From the NCBI GenBank assembly GCA_965178125.1, contig OZ237756.1:682001-746000 (forward strand): 64,000 nt of DNA, written 5' to 3'. The notes under the pieces are model-generated. The model was not told the origin of the DNA, ran no database searches, and worked only from the letters and a program-made list of their open reading frames with translations. The position numbers were made by a program, and so were the translations under genes. The DNA comes from Bilabrum cf. latius (Eukaryota). Shown piece by piece: positions 1-27,934 of this stretch (positions are counted from its first letter, which is position 1; every line of letters begins with the position of its first letter).

Positions 1-189
1 GCTATACCCAGCGATAAACTGTATAGCAAAATCCATAAAGATTTAGATAATGAAGATAAGGATGTAGCAAGACATTCACGAGCTGAATTTTTGAAAAGTT
101 TTAACCCTAATGAGTATAGCGTGTATAATACGTTTGAAGGGCTTTCATAGATGGTTATGTCAGTCTATAATATGACCTACAGAGTGTAA
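1..189 (+). CDS. 3' end of a homolog of the element B P-loop protein (20384-21001)
   Basis: IPSDKLYSKI..SRAEFL..EYSVYNTFEGLSQMV aligns by eye with VPSHSLFEEI..SRTNLI..QYCVYSSFQQLEEFV; one in-frame TAG; TAA stop. Confidence 0.55.
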
Positions 190-225
190 TTATTTGAATA
201 TTATTAAAATATAAATTAATAATAT

Positions 226-1383
226 TTATTTAGTCTTATTATTAAAATTATCCTTTAGAGTTTTTGATATATTTTTAGCCGGCTCCGTTGTTATCTTCCA
301 TTGAATTAAATATTCATCTTGTCCCTCTTGATTCTTTCTTCTCTTTATTATTTTACCTATATCATTCTAATATTTTCTTTTAGTAGCCTCATCAACATAT
401 GAATCTTTCCATTTAACCCTGTATGTATTATTTTTATTCTTTCTTATCAATTTTTCAATTATAAATATATCTTGTGCTTTATTCTCGTATGGTTTAGATG
501 CTAATAACAACTAATCTCTATTAAAGTATGTATAGGGTATGCCCTCAATTTTATATAATGGGGGGTTATCTGGTTTTATTATTACTCTTTCAATTTTATA
601 AGGCTTTACGCTATATTTAATATCTCCCGCCCTAAATGCTCCGGTCTCCTTTATCCCTTCTATACTTCTAGGATAATCTAATCCTATTCTTACCATTTCA
701 CCCTCATTTAATACATCACATACTTCACCCTAACATCTAGGCGGTATATATGGTAGATTCTCCCTTTTCTTATTCAACATTTCCTATCTTGTTTTATAAC
801 GCTCGTTTAATATCTCCCTCAACTTTGGTATTAAATGTCTCCAGTTCGTAATAGTTGTCCCCGTTCTTATCTCCTATGAATTCAAATAATAAAATATAGC
901 TCTCCCTATTTCCTCATTCAATCTCTCCACCAAAGCCATCTACGATTTACGCTTCACTCTTGAAAATATATGCTCTATCTTATTCTTCTTTAGATATTCT
1001 TTAAATAATTCATTATCAAATTCTCCCCCTTTATCTGTTCGTATCATTTTAGGTTTCATTAAATAATTTCTTTTATAGATTTTTTGAAAAGCTTTTATCA
1101 CATCCTCCGCCCCTCTATCCTTTAACTCTTCAAAATCTAACGCTAACCCGCTCGTATCTATCACAACTAATAAATATTTTGAATCGTTCTTGGTAGCGTA
1201 AGGGAGATACAATAAATCAGCCTATTGGATAAGCCCCTCTTTAGTAGGTTTATAATATTTAACATAATTCAATCCTTTCGGTTTCTTTATCGGCTTCATT
1301 AAATCGTTCGTGATAGACTTCGTATTAAATCCAAAACTTGACTCATTAATATCATTATCTTTTTTCTTTCCTCTCTTACTCAT
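226..1383 (-). CDS. Retroviral-type (rve) integrase with chromodomain-like tail (element C)
   Basis: Single 385-aa frame with TAG=Q; Q[Q]ADLLYLP, YLLVVID, IRTDKGGEF and [Q]MALVERLN give the D-D-E triad; C-terminal EYLIQWK..TEP. Confidence 0.9.
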
Positions 1384-1423
1384 TATATATATTAATTGAT
1401 TTTAATATTTATAAATTAATTAT

Positions 1424-1795
1424 TCACGGATTAAATAATTTATTAATAGCTTCATTCGTTTTAATGTGCTCCTTGGTGTCTCTTATCTCCTAATGGATAT
1501 CAACCAACTTTAATTTTTCTTTCTTAGTGAGTCCGTTCATCCTTCCCTTCAATTCTTTTAAAGTTTTCATATAAGGGGCTATAGCTTCTGCTTTCTTTTT
1601 GCTCACCTCTTTATATTCCACATTAAGAGCGGTTAATTTACTATTCACTTTATTTTTTAATTCTGTCTCTTTTATTTTTAGTTGCTTTAACTTTTGTTCT
1701 AATTCACGATTGGTCTTCTTAAAGTCTTCTACAATATCAAGAAATTCATTCTTTAACTTTGAGCGGGTATTAATCACTTTTTGTAATTTATCCAT
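1424..1795 (-). CDS. Hypothetical Lys-rich coiled-coil protein
   Basis: ATG to TGA through one TAG; preceded by the shared TCTA upstream motif. Confidence 0.65.
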
Positions 1796-1800
1796 TTATA

Positions 1801-1837
1801 TATAATTACTAGATATTTTTTTTATTTTTTTTAAACT
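1801..1837 (-). promoter_or_regulatory. AT-rich TATCTAGTAATTATA upstream motif, copy 1
   Basis: 37 bp identical to 2141-2177; both copies lie just upstream of an ATG. Confidence 0.6.
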
Positions 1838-2135
1838 TCATTTTAACTCTTTGTAATTCTCGTGCTATTTCTAATTCCATCAATCCCCTTATTATTCTGC
1901 CATCGTGATAATCCTAAGATGAACAATGAATCAAATCATTCTAAACTGCCGGTAAAGGTATTCTATACATCAATTCATATTTAATAATCTCAAGCGTTAT
2001 TCTGCCTGTTCTCTTCTTCAAAGCTACCCCTAATAAGAGCGGTATTTGTTTATCAGAAACTCTTTTGAATGTCCCTCTAACTATTTTTAATATTCTGCTT
2101 ATACTCTTATCTGTATAAATTACTCTAAAATCCAT
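1806..2135 (-). CDS. Hypothetical protein
   Basis: 109 aa with TAG readthrough, ending in TAA; shared upstream motif. Confidence 0.6.
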
Positions 2136-2140
2136 TGGTA

Positions 2141-2177
2141 TATAATTACTAGATATTTTTTTTATTTTTTTTAAACT
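2141..2177 (-). promoter_or_regulatory. AT-rich TATCTAGTAATTATA upstream motif, copy 2
   Basis: Identical to 1801-1837. Confidence 0.6.
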
Positions 2178-2230
2178 ATAGAATTTTATAAAACGGGTTT
2201 AATAAAATAAAATAATAATTATAATAAAAC

Positions 2231-3028
2231 TTAATTAAAATTATCCTCTATCTCGTCTCGCTCCTCGTTATCCAATACCCAATCTAATCTTGAAGGGTGC
2301 CACGCTCTAGAAATTAATTCTTCTTTGATTTTTTTAGTTTGTTCAATTGTTTCATCTTTCCGCTCTTCTAATGATGGGATTAATGTCGTGGAATAATCAA
2401 TTCGTTCATCCTTAATTCCATTCTCCAAATGATTAAAACTAAAACAATTAGAAAACATACATTCCATATCTACAACATTTGAAACATCCCAGTTATTTAA
2501 AGGTTGATTTAGTGAATGGCAATCATAAAACATTCCGCACATATCTTTAACATTTGAAACGTTCCAATTATTCAATGGTTGGTTAAATGAATGGCAATCA
2601 TTAAACATTTCACTCATATCTTCAACATTTGAAACATTCCAATTATTCAATGGTTGGTTAAACGAATGACACTCATTAAACATACCGCCCATATCTTCAA
2701 CATTTGAAACATCCCAGTTATTTAAAGGTTGATTAAACGAATGACACCCATAAAACATATCGGTCATATCTTTAACATTTGAAACATCCCATGAATTTAT
2801 TGGTGATTCAATTATCATATTATCAAATAGGTTTAACATATTCGTAATAAATGTTGTTACTAATAATTCAGGTTTCAAAAACTACAATGCGTGAAGAAGA
2901 AAATCTGTATCTTTAGCTACGTAATATGTTTTACCTTCAAATTTCACAATATAATTATCTTTTCTAAAATAATATTCTTTTGGTTTTGTAGCTTTCAAGG
3001 TTCCATTTTCCCATTTTAAAACTTCCAT
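2231..3028 (-). CDS. DUF285/BspA-like repeat protein
   Basis: About five 25-aa repeats WDVSNVxDMxxMFxxCxSFNQPLNN; ATG at 3028 reached through one TAG. Confidence 0.85.
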
Positions 3029-3525
3029 TCTGTATATACCTATAATAAATATATTTTTTAAGTCAATTTAAACGCTCTATAACAATTTAAAAATAAAAGC
3101 GCGTTTGTTCCATTTGTGAAGGTATAAGCGAGGATAAGGGGGTATAATGAAGGTAGTTTAGAAGGTTGAATAATGGAGTCCCATAAAGTGATGGAACTTT
3201 TGGCTAGAAAATGGCTAGAGTCCCATAACACCTTCACAAGAGGGCTACATCCACGTTTTGATTAGAACTTACATATACTAATACGCAATTTATGGATATG
3301 GTCATCGTATAGAGTTTTATATATAATTGATTTTATATAATTAGAAGGATAAAGCAGTTATATGAAGTAGCAGTATGAAGAGGACCACCTTGACTTTTGG
3401 AGCGACTAGCTCCAAAAGGAGTGGAACGGACTGAAGAGCTTTAGCTCTGATGGACTGGAACTATTGATGATGTTAATCATCCTTAACCGAAGGGAATAAA
3501 TTTATTTATTACCGTAGCGGGGGGG

Positions 3526-3719
3526 TATTTTCTCTACGCTGGAGTTCCATACCTTCCACTTTCTTTTAATCGTTCAATTTTTGCCCTTTTCCTTATAAAA
3601 TCACTATATTCTGTTTCTAAATCTACGTCGTCCCTTGCCTGTAAATCTAACATTTTAGCATTGTCCAGTTCCCTCTCTAGGGCTTGCTGAATAAGAGCAT
3701 TCACTTTAGCAGTTTTCAT
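3526..3719 (-). pseudogene. 5' part of the 15552-16733 homolog, interrupted by element C
   Basis: Same MKTAKVNAL.. N-terminus; homology stops after AGAGAAAATA. Confidence 0.8.
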
Positions 3720-3782
3720 TTACTATAAGCTTTTATAAAAAGCTTGACCAAAAAATAAAAAAAAGTGTTTGTGTATAGTATA

Positions 3783-4022
3783 ATGGATATTGATAAGTGG
3801 ATTATATAGAGAACCAAACAACTCGCGCTATAGAAAGAACAAGACGCTTTAAATAGAGTTAAAAACCATCATATTAAAGTTGGGAAAGGCCGTAGTAAGC
3901 CTAAGCGGAAAGTGAGCGCCAAAATGAAACGCCGCAATAAACTTGTAAAAATGGTGATGTAGTAGACTGGTATGAGTTTACCTCAAGCAAGTCGGTATAT
4001 AAGAGAATAGAATATTATTTAA
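3783..4022 (+). CDS. Small basic putative core protein
   Basis: 79 aa with TAG=Q; GKG site followed by RNKLVKMVMQQTGMSLPQASRYIRE; conserved in B. Confidence 0.7.
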
Positions 4023-4051
4023 AGAAACTTTTATAACAAGTTTGACCAAAA

Positions 4052-4954
4052 TTATAGAAGGTAAGCCTACCTTTCTCCAATTAAATACCTCGGGTAATTC
4101 CTATGAACACAAACCCACCGAGAAGGCATTTTTAGGACTTTAGAGATTTCTTGTTTCTCAAGTCCAATATAATTTTTTAGTAAATACCTTAGAGAATGTG
4201 CGGAAGAACACTAAGGGAATATAACGAACTTATGACTTTCCGCAAGAATAATACGGGTACTTTTATAGTTGGTGGATAAATGACTTGTGATTAATACTGA
4301 AGTATTTGAGTGGCGACCAACCTATAATATTTCATCCTGTAAATGATTGAGGGCTTCCCTTAACTTCTTATCTTTGATTGTATCAATATCATCCAAGATT
4401 ACTAAGGCGTCCCTTAATTCCTAATGAATATCAATCGGGTTCTCCACCAGTTCCTCATTTAAAATAATCCTTTTCAGTCCTTTCACTTCATCTAAGACTT
4501 TATCCTACTATACTCGTGAAAATAAAATAATTCTCCTGTTTGGAAACATTCTATGATAATTCTTAGCATACTTGGAAACCCAAGTAGACTTCCCAGCACC
4601 TGATGGTGCGGTGATATATATTACCTCTCTTCCGTTTAAATTTGGTAATGATTGGAATTCACCCTATTTTAATGTAATCTCTTTATGTTTCTTTTCCTAT
4701 GCTTTTTCATACAAGTATTTGATGTCTTCGTCTAGGGGTTCGACCTGTTTGATTAAGTGTCGTGCTAATAAATCCATTTTCCTCTGCGGAAATCGTTTCC
4801 CTGTAAGTGATGATACTTGAAAATCCTAGAATGTAACACTATCATCTCCAAATTGGTTGTCTGTGTTTTCCGCTGTGTATAAAATACGTTTTCCGTGAGT
4901 GTCATATGCGATAGGTGATGATTTTGTAGTTTCCTTCCAAGAAAAATATGCCAT
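4052..4954 (-). CDS. Virophage packaging ATPase (A32/FtsK-HerA-like)
   Basis: 300 aa; Walker A APSGAGKS, Walker B LVILDDID, GRH motif. Confidence 0.93.
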
Positions 4955-5029
4955 TTTAGTGTATTTACTATATGTTTTTATATTTTCTAAAGTGTTTTGT
5001 CTTTTTGTTGAAAACTTATTTTGAATGAC

Positions 5030-5368
5030 TTAAACAGTTTCTAGATTTTGTGGGGACTTTTCCATTTCCTCTAGAACCTATGTTTGTAACTCTTTCCTTC
5101 GTTTTGGATTAATAGAATTCCGCAATACTCTTACATCACTTGACAACAATTTCCACTAAGTATATATTTTACCTCCATTCACCGGACAAATCTGTTGTCC
5201 TATCTCAAGCAATAATTCTATGTGCTCCTCAGTTTCTTCCTTTTTGGTTTTGAGTAGATTATACTACTTCTTAAGGTCAAAATATGCTTTCCTTGCAATT
5301 AAATAATCTTTATATACTTCCATATACCTTTTCCAATTACCATATTTCCTTGGTCGTCCTGCTGACAT
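5030..5368 (-). CDS. Hypothetical protein with N-terminal GRPRKY (AT-hook-like), absent from element B
   Basis: 112 aa with TAG=Q, ATG to TAA. Confidence 0.6.
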
Positions 5369-5542
5369 TTTTTTAATTGTGTCTGTGTATCGTTGGGGAA
5401 AATGTATCAATTTTTCTTGGGGACTTTTTAATACCGATTTGTTTTCCACAAATTCCTAAATGGATTTTGTAGAAATACTTCTACACTTAAATAGTGGTTA
5501 AGAGAATTCATCTCCCCCAATATATATGTATATAATAAATCT

Positions 5543-6097
5543 ATGGATTATGCTCTTAGCGATAGTGATATTCGTGTTCTCCTCCAAAATCCACCAAATA
5601 TTAAAGGATTTCTTCCTACGTCGGTAAATATTGTACCTTATACCGAATTAGGATAGTACAATAGTATTGATGGATTGTTTTCCCGTTGTAATTGTTGCAT
5701 TATTTTGTATCAAGAAGAAATAAACTCTGGACACTGGGTGTGCTTATTTAAGCGTAACAAAACAATATACTTCTTTGACAGTTATGGAATTCGTCCTGAT
5801 AGGCAATAGCAGACAATGAGTGAAAGCGTGCGGAAACGTTTTTATGAAGACCCTGAGTTAATTTATTTAATGTATCATTCTCCGTATAAGATTGACTATA
5901 ACCCATATTAGTTTTAGGCGGATGGAATGGATATAGCAACCTGCGGGAGACATTGTATAGTTCGTCTTTGGAATAGAGCGAAAAACGCTAATTAGTATAA
6001 AAAGTGGGTGGATAAGGTTTGTAAGAAACATACATTAAATCCTGATGAATTAGTGTATTTATTGACGTATCATCTTAATGATATACAGGAAATATAA
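5543..6097 (+). CDS. Adenain/Ulp1-like maturation cysteine protease
   Basis: 184 aa; GHWVCL, FFDSYG, F[TAG=Q], TCGRHC (H-D-Q-C). Confidence 0.93.
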
Positions 6098-6139
6098 ACG
6101 GGCATACATTAAATATTATTATATCACTTTATAGAAATA

Positions 6140-6451
6140 ATGCGTTGGACTTCAAAAGACCAAGATAAATGTATGAGATTAAGAAATAAAATAGAAGACA
6201 AAATATGTAATTTAAACGTCAAACAAGGTGTTCTATCAGAAACAGCAATTAAGGAAATTTAGAGTTTATTTTATAATATAACATTATTTGAAAAGGAACC
6301 TGAGAAGTATCATGAACAAATTCAATCACTGACAAATATGGTGGAAAACATTATATTTGAAGAGCAAGTAGAGTATCTTGTAAAATAGGCGAAAACACGA
6401 ATTCTTAACAAAGACGAAATCAAAGAGATAATCGGTAATGTATCTAAATAA
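6140..6451 (+). CDS. Hypothetical protein, absent from element B
   Basis: 103 aa with two TAG, ATG to TAA. Confidence 0.6.
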
Positions 6452-6511
6452 TAAAGATGATATTAAGTCCCCATAAAATTCTGATGCTTCTTGCTGTTAA
6501 AATGGTGTCAT

Positions 6512-7004
6512 TTATGAACTCCAAAGGTAAAAATGTGAGAAGAACTTTGGGGTTCTTGGTTTTACTTCGATACCGTGTCGTTTGAAGTATCTAAATTGGC
6601 GGTCCGTATCTAAATGATTTAAATGGCTGTAATACCCTATTCTATCGTAAAATTGCTAATACCGCCTATCACCAAACGATGTAATATATTCTGATCCTAA
6701 CGCCGGATGGGGTTCGGTGTTGATGCCAGAGTGGGAGCGCGTGAACGTCTCGTTGGGTTCCGATGGCGGTTGCGACCGGGAAGGTGCGACCAAGCCAACG
6801 GATTGCTTGCGATGACGCGCATACCCTCTCTGTGTTCAGGAGAGGGGCGGAGATTGGGTAATTTTTGCGAGACTAGGTTGCGCGTACACTCTGGCATCAA
6901 TCATTTTCGTCAAAAACATCATACTTCTTATTCTTGCGTCTTGAGGGTGCTTTAAATTGAAAATTTTCAACAACCTTTTCAAAATCGTAGGTATGTGGCT
7001 TCAT
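6512..7004 (-). pseudogene. DUF5754-like gene disrupted by a 208-bp insertion
   Basis: Matches intact 13312-13596 except for the insert at 6692-6899. Confidence 0.8.
6692..6899 (-). mobile_element. 208-bp GC-richer non-autonomous insertion with asymmetric inverted repeat (Helitron2-like?)
   Basis: Absent from B; 13-bp IR TGATGCCAGAGTG (6721-6733) / CACTCTGGCATCA (6887-6899); no TSD. Confidence 0.7.
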
Positions 7005-7206
7005 AAGTACTTTATAGTATAGTCTTCTACTTATATCAAAGCCCGAGCTTCTTGTATTCCTTTAGTTTTTCGTGTAATTTTTTCCAAATACGTGGATTAA
7101 TTTGCTTGACAATATGCTCTATCATCAACTCCTTTAAAAATGGGTTCATTTACTATAGTGATATAGAATGGCTTAAATTATCATCTCTTGGGAAATCCTT
7201 GGAAAA

Positions 7207-8250
7207 TTAATTTTAATATTTCTTTGTATCCTATATTGTCAAAATTTTTCAATCAATTTTTGTGTTTTTAATTGGAAAACAATTATAATTTGTTTTTTAT
7301 TTTCCTTTTGATTTTTATGGTGGCATCATAGGAGTTACAACATTTAATTTTAATCTTTGAAAAAGATATCAAAAGAGCGGAGGGCAAAGCCCGAGCATCT
7401 TGGGAACTTAATTTATTCTTTCTAAGTCTCTTATAATTGACCTGTAAAATTGACAAGTTTTTTGGGGACTTTTCGAAAGGGACTTAAAATACGTTTTCGT
7501 TTTCCTTTTAATTTTAATGGTGGCATCATTGGAATTATAACATTTAATTTTAATTGGAAAATATATTTATTCTTTCTAAGTCTCTTATAATTGACCTGTC
7601 AAATCTCTCAATTTTTGGGGGACTTTTCCAAAGGGACTTAAAATACAATTATAATTTGTTTTCGTTTTCCTTATAATGTATCATCTCTTGGGTAATCGGT
7701 TTGGTTGCTTCGGAGAACAATTTAGTCGCTTGGGAAATCCTTGGGAAATCCTTGGGAAATCCTTGGGAAATCCTTGGGAAATCCTTGGTCGGTTCATCGG
7801 TCGGTTCATCGGTTTGTCGCTTGGTGTAACTACCTTGTTCTCTTGATAAAATACCTTGTTCTCTTGGGAAAATCCTCGGTTGGTCTCTTGGTCTCTTGGG
7901 AATTCATCCTTTCGTTCCTACAGCAAACACAGAGAGGTTTTTGACACTTGGTTAATTTCTTCATTTTTTCCTACTTTACTAAAACATCTCTGTCTTTGCT
8001 GTTAGAGTTTATAAGGGGGATAAAGATTAGAATTCTTCAATTTACCCCTACTTCGTAGGAGTAAATTTTATATCTGAAAATGGGTACATAGAGGGGTTCT
8101 ATAGGGGTTCTTGGGGAACCCCTTGGGAAATCATCTAGGTTTATAGGGAAAACACTTGAGTTGCTAAATATGCCTTTAAAGGAGGGGCGAGCGTAGCGTA
8201 GCCCTCGTCCTCAACGCTTGGTGTACCTACCACCACCCGTTGTCCCCCCC
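7207..8250. repeat. TIR of element A
   Basis: Near-identical to 27975-28886; contains 11-bp CCTTGGGAAAT tandem repeats. Confidence 0.9.
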
Positions 8251-8460
8251 CTGCGTCGCATCTTAGCGTCACAGGCCGTGCCAGAGAAGAACGCTACTGG
8301 CTTGGGCTGCTTCTGTATTTCTTTGCTAATCCTGTCTAGCGCAGAGGCTGATCTCTCTCTTTCCCCAGTGTAGACTCGAACCGGAATGACACCTCGCCGG
8401 TCGATCACAGGATCACGCCAGTATCAGCTGAACGTTCGCGAACGAACAGCTGACCCTGCC
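8251..8460. repeat. Internally deleted copy of host repeat 29817-30778
   Basis: 8251-8415 matches 29817-29980 and 8413-8460 matches ~30728-30775. Confidence 0.85.
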
Positions 8461-11400
8461 CGGTTCGAGCTGCCCGGGCTAAACTTGCCGGCTGCTCCTC
8501 TCTGGACCGTTTAGGAGCACTCGCATGAAATCGTGTTCGGTGAGGTAGATGCAGGACGTAGATATGATATGATATATATGGGGGGATGTTCTAGAGACAT
8601 TAGAATATGTCGTGGGGATCAGGTGGGGATAGTGATGTGAGGGATCCTGCAGAGAAGCGCCTGTAAGCCTGATGGTTGGATGTAGTTTCGATTGCGATGG
8701 ACCACCTCTGTTCCTGGCAGCCTAACCTGGATCCAATTACCCGCAGTCCTTTGTTGGCATTGCATTAATCCTGCCGATTTCCCCGCTACAGCCTCACCAC
8801 AAGCGCACGTGACGGCTTCATCCGCCCCTTCACACGGCCTCGGCCACCGGATGCTCTTCATTCGCATCGATCGCCTTGTCGTCTTTCTTGGCAATCCCTG
8901 GCTTCGTGTTCCTGCATTTAAAGAAGTAGGTGGCTGCTCCCACCGTGACGGCAATGACGACGACCACCACCACCACGATGATGATGACCATGCTGGCCCC
9001 TCCCTCGTCGCCATCCTCGTCCGTGGAAGGAGCCACAGCCTCCTCCACTTGCTGGTCCTATTCTTGTACGGTGACCTCCACGGCAATACTCGTCGTATCA
9101 ACCGCGAGTAGCTGGGCTATCTCGGCGGGCGCAGCCATCCTGAGCAGCTCCACCAGCGTATTGTCTTCGGACGTGGTCCTGTTGCCCCGCATGAAGTCCA
9201 GGATGTCCTGCCTTGTGTTCTCCGCGTCGGTGCGCTCCAGCAGAATTGTCACGGTGAAGTCCAGCTCGGTGGCGGAAACACCATTTTCCTCTGAGCCCGA
9301 GGCCTGAAGGGAGCGGCTCCTGCTGGTCGAGGACGGGGTCAGCCGGTCGATGGCCACATCATCGCTTCTGGCCACTTCCCCGACGGCAGTGATGAAGGGA
9401 GTCAGCAGGTTCGACTGGAAGATGGGCGTGGTCACGCTCTACACCCTAGTCCCGGATACCCTGATGCGCCTGCCTTTGCTCCTCACGGGAGCCGTGCACG
9501 TGTTACTGCTGGCCGAGCACACGAGTCCACTGGCGCAGTTGGCTGCGGCGATGCAGGTCCTGCCCTGGGCGCACAACGGACAGTCCTCAGCAGACGCGTC
9601 CCCGCAGTCAATGTCGGTTTCCTGGCCGTTGGTCTCGCCATCACTGCATGTCGATCCTGCGGCACTACCGGTGCTGGATGTGCTCGGCATGGGCGAGGTG
9701 CTGGGACTGCTGGTGATGCTCGGCGTGGGCGAGATGCTGGGGCTGCTGGATACACTCGGCGTGGGCGAGGTGCTGGGACTGCTGGTGATGCTCGGCGAGG
9801 GCGAGGTGCTGGGGCTGCTGGATACACTCGGCGTGGGCGAGGTGCTGGGACTGCTGGTGATGCTCGGCGAGGGCGAGGTGCTGGGGCTGGGACTGCTACT
9901 CGGGGTGGTCGACGGCGACGGCGACAGCGACGGCGATGGTGATGGCAGTTCCCATTCATTAAAGAGGATCCAAGTTGCCCCTCGGCCTCCCGTTATAAAA
10001 TTACTACCATCGTTGGCTGCCCCGACTGCGAAGTCGGTGGTGCCATCTCCGTCCAGATCGCCTAGGGATGCCACGGAAGATCCGAAGTAGCCCTTATCGT
10101 CCAGCTCGCCGGTGAAGCCGCCTTCCGTATCGGAGATCTTCTGGTGGTACTTGACGGTGCCGTTGGCGTTCAAGAAGAGGATCCAAGTTGCCCCACGGCC
10201 CTGCCCTCCATCATCATCTCCGCGCGCCCCCACTGCGAGGTCGGTGGTGTTATCTCCGTCCAGATCGCCTAGGGATGCCACGGAAGATCCGAAGTTGTCA
10301 AAGTTGTCCAGCTCGCCGGTGAAGCCGCCTTCCGTAGAGGAGATCTTCTTGTGGGACTTGACGGTGCCGTCGGCGTTCAAGAAGAGGATCCAAGTTGCCC
10401 CACGGCTCTCTCCTCCATCACTATCGCTGCCTGCCGCCACTGCGAGGTCGGTGGTGCCATCTCCGTCCAGATCGCCTAGGGATGCCGCGGAAGATCCGAA
10501 GTAGCCGTAATCGTCCAGCTCGCCGGTGAAGCCGCCTTCCGTAGAGGAGATCTTCTGGTGGTACTTGACGGTGCCGTCGGTGTTCAAGAAGAGGATCCAA
10601 GTTGCCCCACGGCGATTTCCTCCATCACCATCGTTGGGCGCCCCCACTGCGAGGTCGGTGGTGTTATCTCCGTCCAGATCGCCTAGGGATGCCGCGGAAG
10701 ATCCGAAGTAGTCCCCATCGTCCAGCTCGCCGGTGAAGCCGCCTTCCGTAGAGGAGATCTTCTGGTGGTACTTGACGGTGCCGCCGGTGTTCAAGAAGAG
10801 GATCCAAGTTGCCCCACGGCTCTCTCCTCCATCATTATCGTACATTGCCCCCACTGCGAGGTCGGTGGTGTTATCTCCGTCCAGATCGCCTAGGGATGCC
10901 ACGGAAGATCCGAAGTTGTCAAGTCTGCTCAGCTCGCCGGTGAAGCCGCCTTCCGTATCGGAGATCTTCTGGTGGGACTTGACGGTGCCGTTAGTGTTCA
11001 AGAAGAGGATCCAAGTTGCCCCACGGCCGTCTCCTCCATCATCATCTCGGCTTGCCCCCACTGCGAGGTCGGCGGTGCCATCTCCGTCCAGATCGCCCAG
11101 GGATGCCACGGAAAATCCGAAGTTGTCCGCACTGTCCAGCTCGCCGGTGAAGCCGCCTTCCGTATCGGAGATCTTCTGGTAAGATTTGACAGTCAAGGTA
11201 GCGTCTGTCGTACTCAGCTCTCGCCTCAAAGGGCGCTTTGCTGTCACATCCACTACGAGGTTGTACCCCATCGCAGCGAATGCAGTTGGGGCAGCCGCCA
11301 CGGCCGCCGCAATGATACTGCAACAAGCAAATAGAGCGGATTCTAAAACATTAGGTTTTGATGTATGGTTTTATCTACCGCAATGCTGCCAGGTGCACGA

Positions 11401-12095: not shown

Positions 12096-13061
12096 GGGGG
12101 GGGACAACAGGTGGTGGTAGGTACACCAAGCGTTTAGGACGAGGGCTACGCTACGCTCGCCCCTCCTTTAAAGGCATATTTAGCAACTCAAGTGTTTCCC
12201 CTATAAACCTAAATGATTTCACAGGGGGTTCCCCAAGAACCCCTATAGAACCCCTCTATGTACCCATTTTCAGATATAAAATTTACTCCTACGAAGTAGG
12301 GGTAAATTGAAGAATTCTAATATTTAACCCCCTTATAAACTCTAACAGCAAAGACAGAGATGTTTTAGTAAAGTAGGAAAAAATGAAGAAATTAACCAAG
12401 TGTCCAAAATATCTCTGTGTTTGCTGTAGGAACGGAAGGATGAATTCCCAAGAGACCAAGAGACCAACCGAGGATTTCCCCAAGAGAACAAGGTATTTTA
12501 TCAAGAGACCGAGGTATGTTCCCAAGCGACAAACCGATAAACCGACCGATGAACCGACCGATGAACCGACCAAGGATTTCCCAAGATGCTCGGGCTTTGC
12601 CCTCCGCTCTTTTGATATCTTTTTCAAAGATTGGATTTCCCAAGGATTTCCCAAGCGACTAAATTGTTCTCCGAAGCAACCAAACCGATTACCCAAGAGA
12701 TGATACATTATAAGGAAAACGAAAACGTATTTTAAGTCCCTTTGGAAAAGTCCCCCAAGATGCTCGGGCTTTGCCCTCCGCTCTTTTGATATCTTTTTCA
12801 AAGATTAAAATTGAGAGATTTTACAGGTCAATTATAAGAGACTTAGAAAAAATAAATTAAGTTCCCAAGATGCTCGGGCTTTGCCCTCCGCTCTTTTGAT
12901 ATCTTTTTCAAAGATTAAAATTAAATGTTGTAATTCCTATGATGCCACCATAAAAATTAAAAGGAAAATAAAAAACAAATTATAATTGTTTTCCAATTAA
13001 AAACACAAAAATTGATTGAAAAATTTTGACAATATAGGATACAAAGAAATATTAAAATTAA
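12096..13061. repeat. Left TIR of element B
   Basis: Reverse complement of 27975-28886 with repeat-number indels. Confidence 0.92.
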
Positions 13062-13311
13062 TTTTCCAAGATGCTCGGGCTTTGCCCTCCGCTCTTTTGA
13101 TATCTTTTTCAAAGATTGGATTTCCCAAGAGATGATAATTAAGACCATTCTATATCACTATAGTAAATGAACCCATTTTTAAAGGAGTTGATGATAGAGC
13201 ATATTGTCAAGCAAATTAATCCACGTATTTGGAAAAAATTACACGAAAAACTAAAGGAATACAAGAAGCTCGGGCTTTGATATAAGTAGAAGACTATACT
13301 ATAAAGTACTT

Positions 13312-13596
13312 ATGAAGCTACATACCTACGATTTTGAAAAGGTTGTTGAGAATTTTCTATTTAAAGCACCCTCAAGACGCAAGAATAAGAAGTATGATGT
13401 TTTTGACGAAAATGATGAATATATTACATCGTTTGGTGATAGGCGGTATTAGCAATTTTACGATAGAATAGGGTATTACAGCCATTTAAATCATTTAGAT
13501 ACGGACCGCCAATTTAGATACTTCAAACGACACGGTATCGAAGTAAAACCAAGAACCCCAAAGTTCTTCTCACATTTTTACCTTTGGAGTTCATAA
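13312..13596 (+). CDS. DUF5754-like small viral protein
   Basis: 94 aa; SRRKNKKYDV..SFGDRRY..H.D..R..Y..RH..LW pattern recalled from giant-virus/virophage proteins. Confidence 0.7.
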
Positions 13597-14127
13597 ATGA
13601 CACGTCAATAAATACACTAATTCATCAGGATTTAATGTATGTTTCTTACAAACCTTATCCACCCACTTTTTATACTAATCAGCGTTTTTTCCCCTATTCC
13701 AAAGACGAACTATACAATGTCTCCCGCAGGTTGCTATATCCATTCCATCCGCCTAAAACTAATATGGGTTATAGTCAATCTTATACGGAGAATGATACAT
13801 TAAATATATTAACTCAGGGTCTTCATAAAAACGTTTCCGCACGCTTTCACTCATTGTGTGCTATTGCCTATCAGGACGAATTCCATAACTGTCAAAGAAG
13901 TATATTGTTTTATTACGCTTAAATAAGCACACCCAGTGTCCAGAATTTATTTCTTCTTGGTATAGAATGATACAACAATTACAACGACTAAATAATCCAT
14001 CAATACTATTGTACTATCCTAATTCTGTATATGGAACGATGTTTACCGACGTAGGAAGAAACCCCTTAATATTTGGTGGAGTTTGGAGGAGAACACGAAT
14101 ATCACTATCGCTAAGAGCATAATCCAT
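13591..14127 (-). CDS. Adenain-like maturation cysteine protease
   Basis: 178 aa; same H-D-Q-C motifs as 5543-6097; ends YLLTCHL-TGA. Confidence 0.92.
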
Positions 14128-14316
14128 ATATATTTATTATAGAAACATATATTGGGGGAGATGAATTCTCTTAACCACTATTTAAGCGTAGAAGTATTTC
14201 TACAAAATCCGTTTTGGAATTTGTGGATAGCATAAAAGACAATCATTCAAAATAAGTTTTCAACAAAAAGACAAAACACTTTAGAAAAAATAAAAACATA
14301 TAGTAAATACACTAAA

Positions 14317-15219
14317 ATGGCTCATTTTTCTTGGAAGGAAACTACAAAATCAACACCCATCGCATATGACACTCACGGAAAACGTATTTTATACACGGCG
14401 GAAAACACAGACAACCAATTTGGAGATGATAGTATGTCATTTTAGGATTTTCAAGTATCATCACTTACAGGGAAACGATTTCCGCAGAGGAAAATGGATT
14501 TATTAGCACGACACTTAATCAAACAGGTCGAACCCCTAGACGAAGACATCAAATACTTGTATGAAAAAGCATAGGAAAAGAAACATAAAGAGATTACATT
14601 AAAATAGGGTGAATTCCAATCATTACCAAATCCAAAAGGAAGAGAGGTCATTTATATCACCGCACCATCAGGTGCTGGGAAGTCTACTTGGGTTTCCAAA
14701 TATGCTAAGAATTATCACAGAATGTTTCCAAACAGGAGAATTATTTTATTTTCACGAGTATAGTAGGATAAAGTCTTAGATGAAGTGAAAGGACTGAAAA
14801 GGATTATTTTAAATGAGGAACTGGTGGAGAACCCGATTGATATTCATTAGGAATTAAGGGACGCCTTAGTAATCTTGGATGATATTGATACAATCAAAGA
14901 TAAGAAGTTAAGGGAAGCCCTCAATCATTTACAGGATGAAATATTGTAGGTTGGAAGACATTCGAATACTTCTGTATTAATCACAAGTCATTTATCTACC
15001 AACTATAAAAGTACCCGAATTATTCTTGCGGAAAGTCATAAGTTCGTTATATTCCCTTAGTGTTCTTCCGCACATTCTCTAAGGTATTTACTAAAAAATT
15101 ATATAGGACTTGAGAAACAAGAAATCTCTAAAGTCTTAAAAATGCCTTCTAGGTGGGTATGTGTCCACAGGAATTACCCGAGGTATTTATTAGGAGAAAA
15201 GTAGGCTTACCTTATGTAA
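14317..15219 (+). CDS. Packaging ATPase
   Basis: 300 aa with 9 in-frame TAG; APSGAGKS, LVILDDID, IL[Q]VGRH. Confidence 0.94.
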
Positions 15220-15248
15220 TTTTGGTCAAACTTGTTATAAAAGTTTCT

Positions 15249-15488
15249 TTAAATAATATTCTATTCTCGTATATACCGACTTGCTTGAGGTAAACTCATA
15301 CCAGTCTACTACATCACCATTTTTACAAGTTTATTGCGGCGTTTCATTTTGGCGCTCACTTTCCGCTTAGGCTTACTACGGCCTTTTCCAACTTTAATAT
15401 GTTTGTTTTTAACTCTATTTAAAGCGTCTTGTTCTTTCTATAGCGCGAGTTGTTTGGTTCTCTATATAATCCACTTATCAATATCCAT
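15249..15488 (-). CDS. Small basic putative core protein
   Basis: Ortholog of 3783-4022. Confidence 0.7.
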
Positions 15489-15551
15489 TATACTATACAC
15501 AAACACTTTTTTTTATTTTTTGGTCAAGCTTTTTATAAAAGCTTATAGTAA

Positions 15552-16733
15552 ATGAAAACTGCTAAAGTGAATGCTCTTATTCAGCAAGCCCTAGAAAGGG
15601 AACTGGACAATGCTAAAATGTTAGATTTACAGGCAAGGGACGACGTAGATTTAGAAACAGAATATAGTGATTTTATAAGGAAAAGGGCAAAAATTGAACG
15701 ATTAAAAGAAAGTGGAAGGTATGGAACTCCAGCGTAGAGAAAATAGGCAGACCAAAGCAACGAGGAAATCATATCTAAGTCAATATCTGGTATAATGAAA
15801 GGTATTATTGAGGGTAAAAATGTAAGTCCAGCAGTGAAAGCATTGAAGGATTTTGTTGGTAATATCAATATGTCTCCACAAATGAAGCAACAACTAGCCC
15901 GTCAATACGTAAATATTGAGAGATTTCAAAGGAAAGGCTACGAAGGACTGCAGAGAGTTCCAGCTGAAGACAGAAAACAACTCTTAGAATTAGGGAAAGT
16001 TATATAGGAGGCATCCGGACAACGAATACCGTAGGGAATGTTGGGAATTGATTAGTAGCCAACATCTTTACAAACACCTGCTCGAACAACAAGAAGAAAC
16101 ACGTTTTCCGCTCCAACACAAGTACAGCTTCCAAAAAGGTCTTCGGGTGCGTATAAATAGTTATTGGAAAGAGCCAGAGAAAGAATACAACAAGACAGAC
16201 CCTTAACTGAAAAACAACGAATAGCGTGGGATTTAGAATAGGGAAAGAATTTCTCACAAAGAACATCACAGGGGCAGACAAATATGTTTTAGCATTTTCA
16301 AGAGGGTTCAAGTAGTAATGCGTCAAAAACATCAAAAGACTTAGATGCCATATTAGCCGCAGCGAGCAATGAAAGACCACTACCGCAAGGAAGCACTCCG
16401 GGGGCGTGGGACCCAGAAACTGGTGAGTACTATGATATGCCGAGTAGGATAGAAATTGAGCAGGGAATTGGAAAACGTGCTACTAGACCTGTGTAGCGAT
16501 TTACGGGGTTTAGTCCGCCCTATGGAATTTAGTAGCCTGATTTAGAAGACCCACCATCACGCGCAATGACTGTAGAAGAAAGTGGAAAACCAAAAAAGGG
16601 GAAAGGATTACGAGGTGGAAAAAGGATTATCTATGATACAGCAATGAATGTAGCCAAGAAAGTAAAAGGAGCCGATAAAGATATTCATCATTAGGTTGCT
16701 ATGGAACTATTACATCTTTTAGGAAAAGATTGA
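15552..16733 (+). CDS. Hypothetical 393-aa protein, possible core precursor
   Basis: Open from ATG to TGA with only TAG interruptions; GKGLRGG near the C-terminus. Confidence 0.75.
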
Positions 16734-16798
16734 CCAAAACCTCTTATTTACATCTTTTGGCAACCTGATAAAAATTATTTCTGTGGATATACTATAAA

Positions 16799-17290
16799 AT
16801 GTCAGTTTCAAATCTTCTATCTAAGAACAGTCTAGACCTTATGTCTCAAACTATTACGTGTAATGTTGTGAGTAGCGACGCAATTAAAGTGTCCGCAATT
16901 ACTAACTCTACGGGAGCAGTCATAGGCAATCCAAGTATTGAATTCAAAGACGGAGAGCCTTATATGGAGTGGGGTGAAACTGTTCTACGGTTTGGAAAAA
17001 ACGGAGCGTCTGCTGGTTGTCAGTTCAGTATGAGCGAAGAAGGAGAAAGATGCGATATTTCACTAGTTGGTTCATTCAAGACTTCTCAAGAGGGTGTTGT
17101 TGGGCTGAGTGAGGTTGCTGGAGCTACATTGGCTGACGCTTCTACCCCTATTAATACGTCAGCAGAGCGAAAGTTCAAGGGCGCTTTAGTGTATAATGGA
17201 AGCGACAACGATGTCTATGTGGCGATTGGCAGTTCTTCTACATCTAGTTGGAAATCCTTAGTGTCAGGTTCACTTATTACACCATCTTAA
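16799..17290 (+). CDS. Hypothetical 163-aa Ser/Gly-rich protein upstream of penton (possible fibre/spike)
   Basis: Intact ORF; function guessed from position and composition only. Confidence 0.65.
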   Translation: MSVSNLLSKNSLDLMSQTITCNVVSSDAIKVSAITNSTGAVIGNPSIEFKDGEPYMEWGETVLRFGKNGASAGCQFSMSEEGERCDISLVGSFKTSQEGVVGLSEVAGATLADASTPINTSAERKFKGALVYNGSDNDVYVAIGSSSTSSWKSLVSGSLITPS

Positions 17291-17346
17291 TTATACTTTA
17301 GAAAAGTAATCAAACCCACCCCATAATTATAAACGTCTATAGTAAA

Positions 17347-18456: not shown

Positions 18457-18561
18457 AATTAGTTTTGTATTACTTTTATGAAGAAACGAGTTTGCGTTCT
18501 TTTCTAAAGAACTGAGTGATAGAATTTTATTCGTTGTATATAATATACAAGGAAAACAAAA

Positions 18562-20328: not shown

Positions 20329-20383
20329 GTATGAAAAGGGTAAACCAATAAATATTTGTCTTGGTATATAGTATATCAAAACA

Positions 20384-21001
20384 ATGTCAGTATCATCTGC
20401 TGTAATGGTTGCTGGGACTTTGGCTCCTTTAATGTATTCTGGTAGTCGGTGTCTATATTCTTGGTGGACGAAAGACGGAACTTAGAAACAGAAATCCTGC
20501 GTGGTTGTTCCAAAAGGCTCTGGGAAAACTACTTTGTGTCGCTCTATAGAAAGTGTTGATAAAGACACTTTGGTCATTGACTTAGATGAATGCGTAAATG
20601 GTTAGATTTCAGGGTAGGAAAAATAGAAAATGGAGAAAATGCTAATTGATGGTGATGAAAGCACCCACCGTCTCTTTTATTACTCTTAGTCAAGATTAGT
20701 GTATGAAAAAATTAAAGCGGATTGGCTCACAAAGAAATCCAGGCGTTTAATTGTTATGGTTGGTTCGTTGGAATTAGCGAAAGATTTATTTAAGGAAAGT
20801 TCAATTTTTGTGTGTGTGCCTTCTCACAGTCTTTTTGAGGAAATCCGTGAAGGGAAAAAATCGGGGGACTTATTGTCTGTAGAACGCTCAAGAACGAATT
20901 TAATCGCTGGATTACATTAGAGTTAGTACTGTGTCTATTCATCCTTTTAGCAACTGGAGGAATTCGTCCGGAAAACCTTCGGTCTTGGAAGTCGTCTATG
21001 A
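20384..21001 (+). CDS. P-loop NTPase/kinase-like protein
   Basis: 205 aa; VVVPKGSGKTT, LVIDLDE; hydrophobic N-terminus. Confidence 0.7.
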
Positions 21002-21026
21002 GTTTTTTAATACAAGCCTATACTAA

Positions 21027-22283: not shown

Positions 22284-22303
22284 TTTATGATTGTGTATAG
22301 TAA

Positions 22304-22945: not shown

Positions 22946-22986
22946 CTTAAATCTAACTCTATAGTATAATACTATAGAATACAAAA

Positions 22987-23259
22987 ATGACACTCAGTCA
23001 TTCAGAAAGAAAAGAACAGGATAAGCTGTATGCCCGTGAATACTACCGGAAAAACAAGGAAAAACTTGGAGAATAGATAAAGTGTTCCTGTGGTGGTGTA
23101 TATAAGAAGTACAATAAATCACATCATTGTAGAACCAAAAAACACCTTGATTGGCTTCAAAAAGAGGAAGACACAAAAAGGGAACAAATTAATATTATGG
23201 ATGAACTTGATAGTTTGCGATAGGAAATTTAGAGACTAAAGGAAAAGCAGACTATTTAA
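22987..23259 (+). CDS. Zn-ribbon/C2H2-like protein
   Basis: 90 aa; CSCGG.Y...NKSHH..TKKH. Confidence 0.75.
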
Positions 23260-23260
23260 T

Positions 23261-25102: not shown

Positions 25103-25121
25103 TCTATAGTATCTATTATAT

Positions 25122-25153
25122 TATAGAATACGATAATTATTCTTAAGGTACGA
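25122..25153 (-). promoter_or_regulatory. 32-bp motif upstream of pPolB
   Basis: 29/32 identical to 26836-26867. Confidence 0.6.
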
Positions 25154-25159
25154 ACTCAC

Positions 25160-26821: not shown

Positions 26822-26835
26822 TTTTGTTGTTGTAC

Positions 26836-26878: not shown

Positions 26879-27934
26879 TCAATTTTCTATATCCCACTCC
26901 AAAATTAAATTAGGAGCAATTTCTTGGATTTTATTCTTTGGTTCCCACGTCCAATGTTCTGGTTCTGGAAAATCTTTCCATTCTATTTGATATTCTGTTT
27001 CGTTCTCGGATTTTATTTTTTTTGGCAGAAAGATTGTCTGAGCATCTCGGTTATTGTCCTCATTATCAAAGTCGATAATCTGTAATTCCTCTTTTGTATA
27101 AGCCACTAAATCGTCCTAATCCACAACATATAAAGGTGGTTGTTCGGGTCTTAATAACACTTTAGTAACCGTTTTGATTTCTGGATTATAGCGTAAATCG
27201 GAAGCACGAAAATTTCCGGATAATTTTTGCTGTAAATTTGTAGCCTTTCTGGGTTCTTCTAATGGTATACGAACTCTTGTACCCTCTTCCAATATATTAC
27301 AAGCGTCCCCTTTACACTACGTAAAGTCGAAGTGTTCTGGGGGTAAAGGTGGTTCTTCTATATACTTTTCCAGTTGATATTCATTATAGTTTTCAATGAT
27401 GTTTGGAAGCATATCCACCCATTCTACGCTTTCGTTACCTGTATTTAACTCATTAACGTTCTATAGGGTAAATATGGCTTTTCCCAACGTTTTATTTAAG
27501 TTTTCCACTAATGCTTGTTGTCGGTGGCGACCTGCTTTATTTCTTCGTACAAATACGTCGGTCTCTTCTAAATATCTTTGTAAAGCGTTGAATTCTTTTC
27601 CATTATCTATTTCCAAACGGTACTGCGGTTTCTGGACATTTCCACGATTGAAAATCTTTTTTGACGCCTTTAATACTTCGTTCTAACGCTTGGTTTTGAG
27701 CGGTTCAGCATCGGCCTACTTTGTATGTAAATCAATAGCAGTTAATGCGTATTTATAATTCTTGTCGTGTGGTAAAGATAATAAATCCATTTGTACCACT
27801 TGGTGAGGTTCTGGTACATTTACGTGGGGTCGATTTACTCCTTTGGGTCGTTTTGGTCGTTTCATTAAATTTACAATACGACTGTTGGGATAAATGTTTA
27901 GGGATTGTAATATTCTTTCAAAGGCGCTACTCAT
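26879..27934 (-). CDS. rve integrase with C-terminal chromodomain
   Basis: 351 aa; QMDLL, IDNGKEF, QQALVENLN; YQIEWKDFP...TWEP. Confidence 0.92.

What the first reader, a model, noticed from the sequence alone, without database searches (positions are those of the whole stretch)
1..3719. A different virophage-like element nested inside element A
Seen: A's copy of the 393-aa gene breaks at codon ~65 directly against a G7 run. Beyond it lie an unrelated terminal region, a divergent integrase, a DUF285 gene and a distant homolog of B's P-loop gene. The terminus polarity (5'-CCCCCCC) is opposite to A/B (5'-GGGGGGG). Inference: one provirophage type integrated into and inactivated another.
Basis: partly seen in the sequence, partly recalled or inferred. 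Interest (0 to 1): 0.8.

Follow-up and report, generated by a model that had tools for sequence, protein, structure and literature searches.

The report
Second virus-like element abutting a broken provirophage
The end of a second, unrelated virophage-like mobile element sits exactly where a resident integrated virophage is cut off in mid-gene, most likely because one inserted into the other, a kind of nesting recently described in another protist.

Summary
Element A matches complete virophage B (12096-28886) at 97% down to position 3526. It stops there inside codon 65 of B's 393-aa gene, directly against a G7 run at 3519-3525.

Left of the break, 1-3525 ("C") has no nucleotide similarity to the rest of the window. 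C carries:
- an intact DDE integrase, 33% identical to B's;
- a DUF285 gene and two small ORFs;
- the 3' end of a homologue of B's P-loop gene;
- a 497-bp non-coding, hairpin-rich end.

C reads TAG as glutamine, as do A, B and the host-like genes, so it is not a foreign contaminant. C differs from A/B in terminal sequence (5'-C7 versus 5'-G7-8), upstream gene motif and GC content.

C is therefore a distinct integrase-bearing virophage- or PLV-type element. Insertion of C into A is the best reading, at about 0.55. Only one junction is visible: the other C end, a TATTT target duplication and the rest of A lie off the window. No capsid gene of C is visible either.

Rivals are deletion or end-joining, a G7 that belongs to a truncated A, and misassembly. 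Virophage-in-virophage nesting is already reported in Halocafeteria seosinensis (2026 preprint). This is a new member of a known kind, of moderate interest.

The parts
1..189 (+). 3' end (62 codons plus TAA) of C's homologue of B's 205-aa P-loop gene. It runs off the left edge of the window and has one in-frame TAG at 148-150.
   Evidence: E 1e-7; colinear with 4 database homologues; P146, S147, L150, S169, R170, Y182, V184 and F188 invariant.
226..1383 (-). C integrase, 385 aa with 7 in-frame TAG codons and a TAA stop. Retroviral-type DDE core (D56, D117, E153). C-terminal chromo-like region, not confirmed.
   Evidence: (rve 43 bits, above cut-off; Chromo 21.8 bits, below the 25.1 cut-off). 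Model core pLDDT 84-94 over residues 71-140; best PDB fold matches are PFV and RSV integrases, E 1e-10.
1424..1795 (-). C ORF of 123 aa, Lys/Glu-rich (looks coiled-coil by eye), 1 TAG, function unknown.
   Evidence: (no Pfam family above its cut-off).
1806..2135 (-). C ORF of 109 aa, 3 TAG codons, function unknown.
   Evidence: (0 families).
1790..1837 (-). 48-nt block immediately upstream of the 123-aa ORF start. A 96% identical copy at 2130-2177 lies upstream of the 109-aa ORF. Promoter-like; contains TCTAGTAATTATATA.
   Evidence: (family D13).
2231..3028 (-). C DUF285 / BspA-type leucine-rich-repeat gene, 265 aa, 1 TAG. Holds 4 overlapping 150-nt copies spaced 75 nt apart.
   Evidence: family D3; PF03382, E 8e-55.
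3029..3525 (.). Non-coding terminal region of C (497 nt, 35% GC). The last 146 nt form four hairpins. It ends in the G7 run 3519-3525.
   Evidence: z -5.97; 0 of 200 shuffles fold as well. B's last 146 nt give z -0.77.
3525..3526 (.). C/A junction. The 3' end of C (...GTAGCGGGGGGG) is joined to A-internal sequence (TATTTTCTC...).
   Evidence: (pair I1).
3526..3719 (-). Truncated 5' fragment (64 codons plus 2 bases) of A's copy of the 393-aa gene.
3526..8251 (.). Remnant of element A: ATPase 4052-4954 (-), the homologue at 5543-6097 (+) of the ORF I take by position to be B's protease, small ORFs, and the right TIR ending in C8 at 8244-8251. It is the inverted counterpart of B 12096-15745.
   Evidence: (pairs I1, I2, I4, I5, I8).
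15552..16733 (+). Intact 393-aa gene in B, the reference for the broken A copy. 13 in-frame TAG codons, no known family.
20384..21001 (+). B's 205-aa P-loop gene, directly downstream of the MCP gene. Reference for C's fragment at 1-189.
26879..27934 (-). B integrase (rve plus chromodomain), reference for C's integrase.
   Evidence: (rve 37.2 bits, Chromo 26.5 bits, both above cut-off).

Best explanation
Positions 1-3525 are the right-hand end (at least 3.5 kb) of a second integrating DNA element, C. C belongs to the virophage / polinton-like-virus class and is a different type from A and B. Its 3' end (...GCGGGGGGG-3') is joined to the interior of A's 393-aa gene.

The most likely mechanism is insertion of C into the already resident provirophage A, catalysed by C's retroviral-type DDE integrase. 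This would be 3'-end strand transfer across a staggered cut of about 5 bp at TATTT. It splits A and truncates one of its genes.

Shown:
- the clean break of A;
- the intact integrase with its D, D, E triad;
- the terminal, non-coding, hairpin-rich nature of 3029-3525;
- the shared TAG=Gln reading;
- the differences from A/B.

Inferred:
- that the G7 run is C's true terminus;
- that a second inverted end, a TATTT duplication and the rest of A lie upstream;
- that a chromo-like tail of the integrase favours silenced provirophage chromatin;
- that A is disabled by the insertion.
For: - Sharp break. A matches B at 97% up to 3526 and not one base further, inside codon 65.
- The junction lies at a G7 run. 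All 4 of the 4 G/C runs of at least 7 nt in the 25 kb of low-GC elements lie at element boundaries, against a shuffle mean of 0.22 and 0 of 2000 shuffles reaching 4.
- The 497 nt next to the junction are non-coding, as the ends of B are, and the last 146 nt are strongly structured (z -5.97). This fits a terminus and not an arbitrary internal point.
- The polarity fits integrase chemistry. A strand ending ...G7-3' is joined to target DNA (sequence; mechanism from established knowledge of retroviral-type integrases).
- C's integrase looks functional. It has 385 codons with no frameshift and D56, D117 and E153 are invariant in 13 of 13 aligned sequences. rve scores above the Pfam cut-off, and the fold matches retroviral integrases.
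- All four complete C ORFs are open once TAG is read as Gln. They hold 12 TAG and 0 CAG codons and end in TAA or TGA.
- At three conserved columns, C's TAG codons align with Q in 10 of 11, 9 of 11 and 11 of 11 database homologues. C therefore belongs to the same unusual-code host system as A and B, which argues against a cross-organism chimera.
- B shows that this integrase family makes 5-bp duplications here: GGGCC on both sides of B.
- C is a different type from A/B. There is no nucleotide similarity. GC is 28-30% in C against 32-36% in A and 33-43% in B. The A/B upstream motif TATA[GC]TA is present before 8 of 12 B genes and 0 of 4 C genes.
- Precedent. Passages and section 8 of preprint 10.64898/2026.07.28.741278 report 9 virophages and 5 PLVs embedded in other viral elements in Halocafeteria seosinensis.
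Against: - Only one junction is visible. No second C end, no target-site duplication and no continuation of A were seen.
- No capsid or other morphogenesis gene of C lies in the window, so its class is inferred from two genes.
- No close relative with context was found. The best relative of C's integrase (P0002, 75% identical) sits on a 1675-nt contig. The genome-contig scan returned only relatives at 30-34% identity: 9 confirmed of 49 pattern matches.
- The segment 3519-8251 reads 5'-G7...C8-3', which is the A/B polarity, so the run might belong to A and not to C.
- C's chromodomain is not confirmed (21.8 bits against a 25.1 cut-off; pLDDT mostly 37-65 and never above 65 over residues 301-385), so the targeting idea is weak.
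- Neighbouring rearrangements exist. A 165-nt, 100% identical repeat touches A's other terminus. This shows the locus is not simple.
- Read support for the junction is unknown.
Confidence: 0.55

Rival explanations
1. Deletion or end-joining junction. A and C entered the locus separately, as neighbours or as co-integrated linear DNAs. A later deletion, or non-homologous end joining of a broken A genome to C's end, produced the junction. C is not flanked by A on both sides.
For: - Only one junction is seen.
- The locus shows other rearrangement signs: a 165-nt exact repeat abutting A's right terminus but lying 925 bp from B's, three indels between A and B, and A and B in inverted orientation 3.8 kb apart.
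- There is no microhomology at the junction, which fits blunt joining as well as integration.
- The Halocafeteria preprint describes partial and 'hypothetical recombined' viral elements.
Against: - A deletion would have to end exactly at C's terminal run and terminal non-coding region by chance.
- All 4 long G/C runs mark element ends.
- An intact integrase offers a simpler route.
Confidence: 0.2
2. The G7 run belongs to A. Under this reading 3519-8251 is a truncated A-type genome with the normal A/B polarity (5'-G7...C8-3'). It lost everything between its left terminal run and position 3526. C is merely the DNA it lies next to or inserted into, which would be the reverse nesting.
For: The segment 3519-8251 begins with G7 and ends with C8, exactly as B begins with G8 and ends with C7. 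This would remove the need for an 'opposite polarity' terminus.
Against: - The run is followed by A-internal sequence and not by the A/B TIR (ACAACAGG...), so a deletion breakpoint would have to fall exactly at the run boundary.
- A's right flank is GC-rich host-like DNA, not C.
- The flanks GTAGC and TGCGT are not a duplication.
- 3029-3518 looks like a terminal region of C, being non-coding and hairpin-rich.
Confidence: 0.08
3. Assembly artefact. Two different low-GC elements were joined wrongly at or near the homopolymer.
For: - Endogenous virophages are known to cause assembly problems (passages of PMC8547959, and of PMC10120064).
- The junction lies at a homopolymer.
- No reads were available.
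Against: - A 7-nt run is too short to act as an assembly repeat.
- There is no shared sequence between C and A/B at which a collapse could occur.
- Both sides use the same rare TAG=Gln reading, so both come from the same biological system.
Confidence: 0.1
4. Recombinant hybrid genome. A and C sequences are two halves of one chimeric virophage produced by recombination during co-replication, later integrated as a unit.
For: Gene exchange between co-resident virophages and PLVs is reported (section 7 of preprint 10.64898/2026.07.28.741278). C and B share two gene families.
Against: - The join truncates a conserved gene at codon 65 and leaves a 497-nt terminal-type non-coding region in the middle of the supposed genome.
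- A hybrid would then carry a homopolymer terminus internally.
Confidence: 0.05

Closest known systems
Nested endogenous virophages and PLVs of Halocafeteria seosinensis (preprint 10.64898/2026.07.28.741278; abstract, passages and sections 7 and 8 read)
   Same: Low-GC virophage and PLV elements with TIRs and rve integrases sit in a higher-GC protist genome. Elements are embedded in one another (9 virophages and 5 PLVs). Integrase and other genes are shared between types. Some subtypes have terminal palindromes.
   Different: That host has 47% GC and no variant code is mentioned (0 hits for 'genetic code', 'stop codon' or 'TAG'). Here the host-like DNA has about 50-71% GC and TAG is read as Gln. 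Here only one junction is visible. Homopolymer termini are not mentioned in the parts I read.
Endogenous mavirus-like elements (EMALEs) of Cafeteria burkhardae interrupted by Ngaro retrotransposons (PMC8547959, passages)
   Same: AT-rich provirophages lie in a GC-rich host and are bounded by TIRs and short target-site duplications. A second mobile element interrupts provirophage genes ('nested parasitism').
   Different: There the invader is a GC-rich tyrosine-recombinase retrotransposon. Here it is another low-GC element with a DDE integrase. In the passages I read, virophage-in-virophage insertion is not described for Cafeteria.
Mavirus / Maverick-Polinton integration (as cited in PMC8547959: 5-6 bp target duplications; that mavirus has an rve integrase is from my own recall)
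   Same: Retroviral-type integrase. B shows a 5-bp duplication, GGGCC. The integrase gene lies near one end.
   Different: B's capsid protein is closer to Sputnik V20 (3j26, E 5e-29) than to the mavirus MCP (6g45, E 1.6e-8). C's capsid genes are unseen.
Endogenous PLV-like viruses of Streblomastix strix that use the host's variant code (PMC10120064, passage)
   Same: Integrated viral elements follow the non-standard stop-codon reading of their host.
   Different: There both TAA and TAG encode Gln. Here only TAG does, while TAA and TGA end the ORFs.

Membership tests
Retroviral-type (rve, DDE) integrase | Match to the rve catalytic-core profile above the curated cut-off | tested here: met
   C integrase scores 43 bits against a cut-off of 32.6, E 5.8e-11.
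Retroviral-type (rve, DDE) integrase | Catalytic D, D, E triad present | tested here: met
   D56, D117 and E153 are invariant in 13 of 13 aligned sequences. That these columns are the catalytic triad is my reading from the known spacing of the motif.
Retroviral-type (rve, DDE) integrase | RNase-H-like core fold | tested here: met
   Model core pLDDT is 84-94 over residues 71-140. The top PDB matches are PFV and RSV integrases, E 1.5e-10, probability 1.0.
Chromodomain-bearing integrase (the type carried by B) | C-terminal chromodomain | tested here: inconclusive
   C scores 21.8 bits for Chromo, below the 25.1 cut-off. pLDDT over residues 301-385 is mostly 37-65. B's integrase passes at 26.5 bits.
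Virophage (Sputnik/mavirus-type capsid module) | Virophage-type major capsid protein, penton, packaging ATPase and cysteine protease | not testable with these tools
   None lies in the visible 3.5 kb of C. The rest of C is off the window. B has the MCP (PF22031, PF21915) and penton (PF21507) families and an AAA-type ATPase. The ORF I take by position to be B's protease (13591-14127) matched 0 Pfam families.
Same element type as A/B | Nucleotide similarity, the same terminal sequence and the same upstream gene motif | tested here: not met
   Best blastn E is 0.18. The terminus reads 5'-C7GCTACGG against 5'-G7-8ACAACAGG. TATA[GC]TA lies upstream of 0 of 4 C genes against 8 of 12 B genes.
Nested transposon-type insertion | Target broken cleanly relative to an intact copy | tested here: met
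   The A/B match ends at 3526 inside codon 65.
Nested transposon-type insertion | Inserted element bounded by its own two termini (TIR) | not testable with these tools
   Only the right end is in the window. No inverted copy of 3029-3525 occurs anywhere in the window.
Nested transposon-type insertion | Target-site duplication and continuation of the target on the far side | not testable with these tools
   The far side is upstream of position 1. The contig collections that might hold it were closed.
DUF285 / BspA-type leucine-rich repeat proteins | Match to PF03382 above the cut-off | tested here: met
   184 bits against a cut-off of 25. 2182 homologues at E <= 0.001 among 2364 candidates; every one of the 120 listed carries PF03382.

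The most novel reading that the evidence does not exclude
C represents an undescribed virophage/PLV lineage with 5'-poly(C), hairpin-rich termini. It coexists with poly(G)-ended Sputnik-like virophages in a host that reads TAG as glutamine. It preferentially integrates into resident provirophages, so it would be a hyperparasite or competitor of another virophage. Its chromo-like integrase tail would steer it to silenced provirophage chromatin, and its different terminal nucleotide and upstream motif would point to a different replication and transcription partner.
Probability: 0.1. Interest if true: 0.7.

Novelty: new member of a known kind. Interest (0 to 1): 0.35.

Why it matters
If C did insert into A, provirophages in this genome are themselves targets for other integrating viruses. 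That would shape how long a provirophage stays able to reactivate and protect its host against a giant virus.

The same locus gives a natural comparison of two element types in one host. They differ in termini (5'-C7 against 5'-G7-8), in terminal structure and in upstream motifs. This makes it possible to test whether they depend on different replication enzymes or different giant viruses.

The case adds a second host system to the nesting described in Halocafeteria, this time in a genome with a rare TAG-only stop-codon reassignment. It does not by itself open a new kind of biology.

Tried and rejected
- Close relatives with genomic context. The genome-contig scan with the integrase alignment gave 9 confirmed loci of 49 pattern matches, all at 30-34% identity and none C-like. 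The longest, L001, had no recognisable family other than the integrase: 1 of 12 ORFs matched Pfam.
- tblastn of C's integrase and of B's MCP against the 'phages' collection: no match for either.
- The protein atlas would not take a protein read under a changed code, so it gave no look-alikes for the P-loop protein.
- DUF285 homologues match through the repeats only and say nothing about lineage.
- Function of the broken 393-aa gene: 0 Pfam families; best solved-structure E is 0.31, not meaningful. The P-loop family profile has 0 solved-structure matches at E <= 1.
- tRNA search (0 genes) and Rfam search (0 families) over the whole window.
- Other copies of C genes in the window: none except B's integrase homologue.
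- C as decayed pseudogenes was rejected. All 7 in-frame stops in the integrase are TAG with no frameshift, and they fall on conserved Q columns.
- C as a contaminant from another organism was rejected because it shares the TAG=Gln reading with A, B and the host-like ORFs.
bioRxiv supplements were closed, so the element tables of the Halocafeteria preprint were not seen.
- Papers on virophages with a TAG-only code. Searches found none: all 12 listed papers of the 47 found had 0 occurrences of 'virophage', and none of the 8 listed concerns this by title and abstract. I read passages in 3 of those 8.
Full report
LAYOUT OF THE WINDOW

The first 29 kb hold two low-GC blocks (28-43% GC) in DNA of about 50-71% GC.

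Under the standard code almost every long frame in these blocks is broken. All 7 in-frame stops of the integrase frame 226-1383 are TAG, and there is no frameshift. Reading TAG as a residue restores a full set of genes.

Block B (12096-28886) is then a complete virophage. It carries:
- a Sputnik-type major capsid protein (PF22031 E 2e-27, PF21915 E 2e-22) and a penton (PF21507);
- an AAA-type ATPase;
- a DUF5906/VapE-type helicase;
- a weak protein-primed polymerase B match (24.7 bits against a cut-off of 25.8);
- an rve plus chromodomain integrase.

B's capsid protein matches Sputnik V20 (3j26, E 5e-29) better than the mavirus MCP (6g45, E 1.6e-8). B has 495-nt inverted ends at 99% identity (pair I3). 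These include flanking GGGCC bases, which happen to extend the inverted repeat. Its termini read 5'-G8ACAACAGG... and ...CCTGTTGTC7-3', and it has a 5-bp direct duplication, GGGCC.

Element A (3526-8251) is the inverted counterpart of B's left 3.6 kb, at 93-100% identity in the matching blocks (pairs I1, I2, I4, I5, I8).

THE OBSERVATION

The A/B match (1503 nt, 97%) ends exactly at 3526. A reads GGGGGGG|TATTTTCTCTACGC and B reads GGTCTGCC|TATTTTCTCTACGC.

B's gene 15552-16733 is 393 aa with 13 in-frame TAG codons. A's copy starts at 3719 on the minus strand and its first 61 residues are identical to B's. It stops after the second base of codon 65.

The G7 run is at 3519-3525. In the 25,042 nt of low-GC elements there are four G or C runs of at least 7 nt, and all four lie at element boundaries. 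The shuffle mean is 0.22, and 0 of 2000 shuffles reach four.

- The integrase is 226-1383 (-). rve scores 43 bits, and it is 33% identical to B's with E 1e-44.
- The DUF285 gene is 2231-3028 (-), E 8e-55.
- The tail of a homologue of B's P-loop gene is at 1-189 (+), pairwise E 1e-7. It is colinear with four database homologues of B's protein, with eight invariant columns and the same end point.
- The terminal region is unrelated to the rest of the window, best blastn E 0.18.
- The terminal polarity is opposite to that of A/B.

WHAT C IS

Under TAG=Gln all four complete C ORFs are open. They hold 12 TAG and 0 CAG codons and end in TAA or TGA.

The meaning of TAG comes from the integrase alignment. 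At three conserved columns C's TAG codons align with Q in 10 of 11, 9 of 11 and 11 of 11 database homologues. At the other four columns there is no consensus. The closest homologue, P0002 (75% identical), has Q at 6 of the 7 positions.

The integrase keeps D56, D117 and E153, invariant in 13 of 13 sequences. Its modelled core is confident, and its best structural matches are the prototype foamy virus and Rous sarcoma virus integrases, E about 1e-10. Its chromodomain is not confirmed: it scores below the Pfam cut-off and the C-terminus of the model has low confidence.

The 497 nt between the DUF285 gene and the junction are non-coding. The last 146 nt fold into four hairpins (z -5.97, 0 of 200 shuffles as good). 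B's last 146 nt are unremarkable (z -0.77, 44 of 200).

The gene-upstream sequences also differ:
- TATA[GC]TA lies within 40 nt of 8 of 12 B starts. The background is 0.74 per kb per strand, which gives about 0.4 expected.
- The same motif lies upstream of 0 of 4 C starts.
- C has TATATA before 4 of 4 starts, and a 48-nt repeated block before two of them.

C is therefore a separate type of integrating element that shares two gene families and the genetic code with A/B. Whether it is a virophage or a polinton-like virus cannot be said, because no capsid gene is in view.

HOW THE JUNCTION MOST LIKELY AROSE

A strand ending ...GCGGGGGGG-3' is joined to the interior of a gene of another element. 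This is what strand transfer by a retroviral-type integrase produces, according to established knowledge of that enzyme family. B shows that such integrases make 5-bp duplications in this genome.

The non-coding, structured, homopolymer-ended stretch looks like a true terminus. I therefore favour insertion of C into resident A, with a predicted TATTT duplication, at confidence 0.55. The remaining steps are inference: the second end, the duplication, the rest of A, any targeting by a chromo-like domain, and loss of A's function.

RIVALS

(a) A deletion or end-joining between separately acquired elements (0.2).
- The locus has other irregularities. A 165-nt, 100% identical repeat abuts A's right terminus but lies 925 bp from B's. 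A has three extra segments relative to B, one of them a 208-bp insert of 55% GC.

(b) The G7 belongs to a truncated A (0.08).
- For: 3519-8251 reads 5'-G7...C8-3', like B.
- Against: the run is not followed by the A/B TIR, A's right flank is not C, and the flanks do not form a duplication.

(c) Misassembly (0.1).
- It cannot be tested without reads.
- There is no shared repeat at the join, and both sides use the same rare code.

(d) A recombinant hybrid genome (0.05).

COMPARISON WITH WHAT IS KNOWN

- Embedding of virophages and PLVs in one another is reported for Halocafeteria seosinensis: 9 virophages and 5 PLVs, one case three deep. The same work reports shared integrases and terminal palindromes in some subtypes (preprint 10.64898/2026.07.28.741278; abstract, passages and sections 7 and 8 read). 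That host has 47% GC, so it is a different system.
- In Cafeteria burkhardae about one in four endogenous virophages is interrupted by a Ngaro retrotransposon (PMC8547959, passages).
- A Ty3/Gypsy element inside a PLV, and viral elements that follow the TAA/TAG=Gln code of Streblomastix strix, are in PMC10120064 (passages).

The finding is therefore a new member of a known kind.

WHAT STAYED OPEN

- The contig upstream of the window, read support for the junction, and other genomic copies of C were not available.
- The only close relative of C's integrase lies on a 1675-nt contig.
- The genome-contig scan found only distant relatives.
- The atlas tool did not take recoded proteins.
- The supplements of the preprint were closed.

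SIDE OBSERVATION

The GC-rich host-like ORFs also carry in-frame TAG.
- Two FG-GAP paralogues (86% identical) share TAG at two aligned codons. Both stay in frame for about 200 further codons, through a hydrophobic, transmembrane-like stretch and a short tail (seen by eye in the translations).
- Two armadillo repeats have TAG where sister repeats have Glu.
- The TAG=Gln reading thus seems to be a property of the host. The elements follow it.

Noticed in passing
whole window; e.g. 226-1383, 12096-28886, 8833-11271, 43146-45698, 52040-55234, 59618-63997: TAG is a sense codon, with glutamine as the best fit, in elements A, B and C and apparently in the GC-rich host-like ORFs. TAA and TGA end the ORFs. 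The window holds no tRNA gene and no Rfam family. Searches found no paper describing virophages with a TAG-only reassignment.
   Followed up: partly
12096-28886: B is a complete 16.8-kb endogenous virophage. It has inverted ends of about 0.5-0.9 kb, G8/C7 homopolymer termini and a 5-bp duplication, GGGCC. Its capsid protein is Sputnik-V20-like, and it also has a penton, an ATPase, a weak pPolB match, a helicase and a chromodomain integrase. The upstream motif TATA[GC]TA precedes 8 of its 12 genes.
   Followed up: partly
8251-8415 and 29817-29981: A 165-nt direct repeat, 100% identical. One copy touches A's right terminus directly. The other lies 925 bp beyond B's right terminus. Its origin is unexplained: it could be a host repeat, a local duplication or a rearrangement.
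   Followed up: partly
6692-6899: A 208-bp insert of 55% GC in A that is absent from B, with imperfect inverted ends (TGATGCCAGAGTG / CACTCTGGCATCA). No other copy occurs in the window. It may be a small host transposon inside the provirophage.
   Followed up: partly
5029-5439 and 6074-6504: Two segments present in A but missing from B. Each carries a small ORF (112 aa and 103 aa under TAG=Gln). They show gene-content differences between two copies that are otherwise 93-100% identical.
   Followed up: no
8833-11271 and 43146-45698: Two paralogous FG-GAP repeat genes, 86% identical. Each has 207-nt tandem repeats, a Ser/Pro-rich stalk, a hydrophobic transmembrane-like segment (by eye) and a short tail. 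A and B flank the first one.
   Followed up: partly
30228-30396, 32082-32095, 32276-36442: A cluster of long poly-G tracts (9-14 nt), followed by a 1388-codon repetitive open frame with 8 TAG codons and no Pfam match. Its nature is unknown.
   Followed up: no
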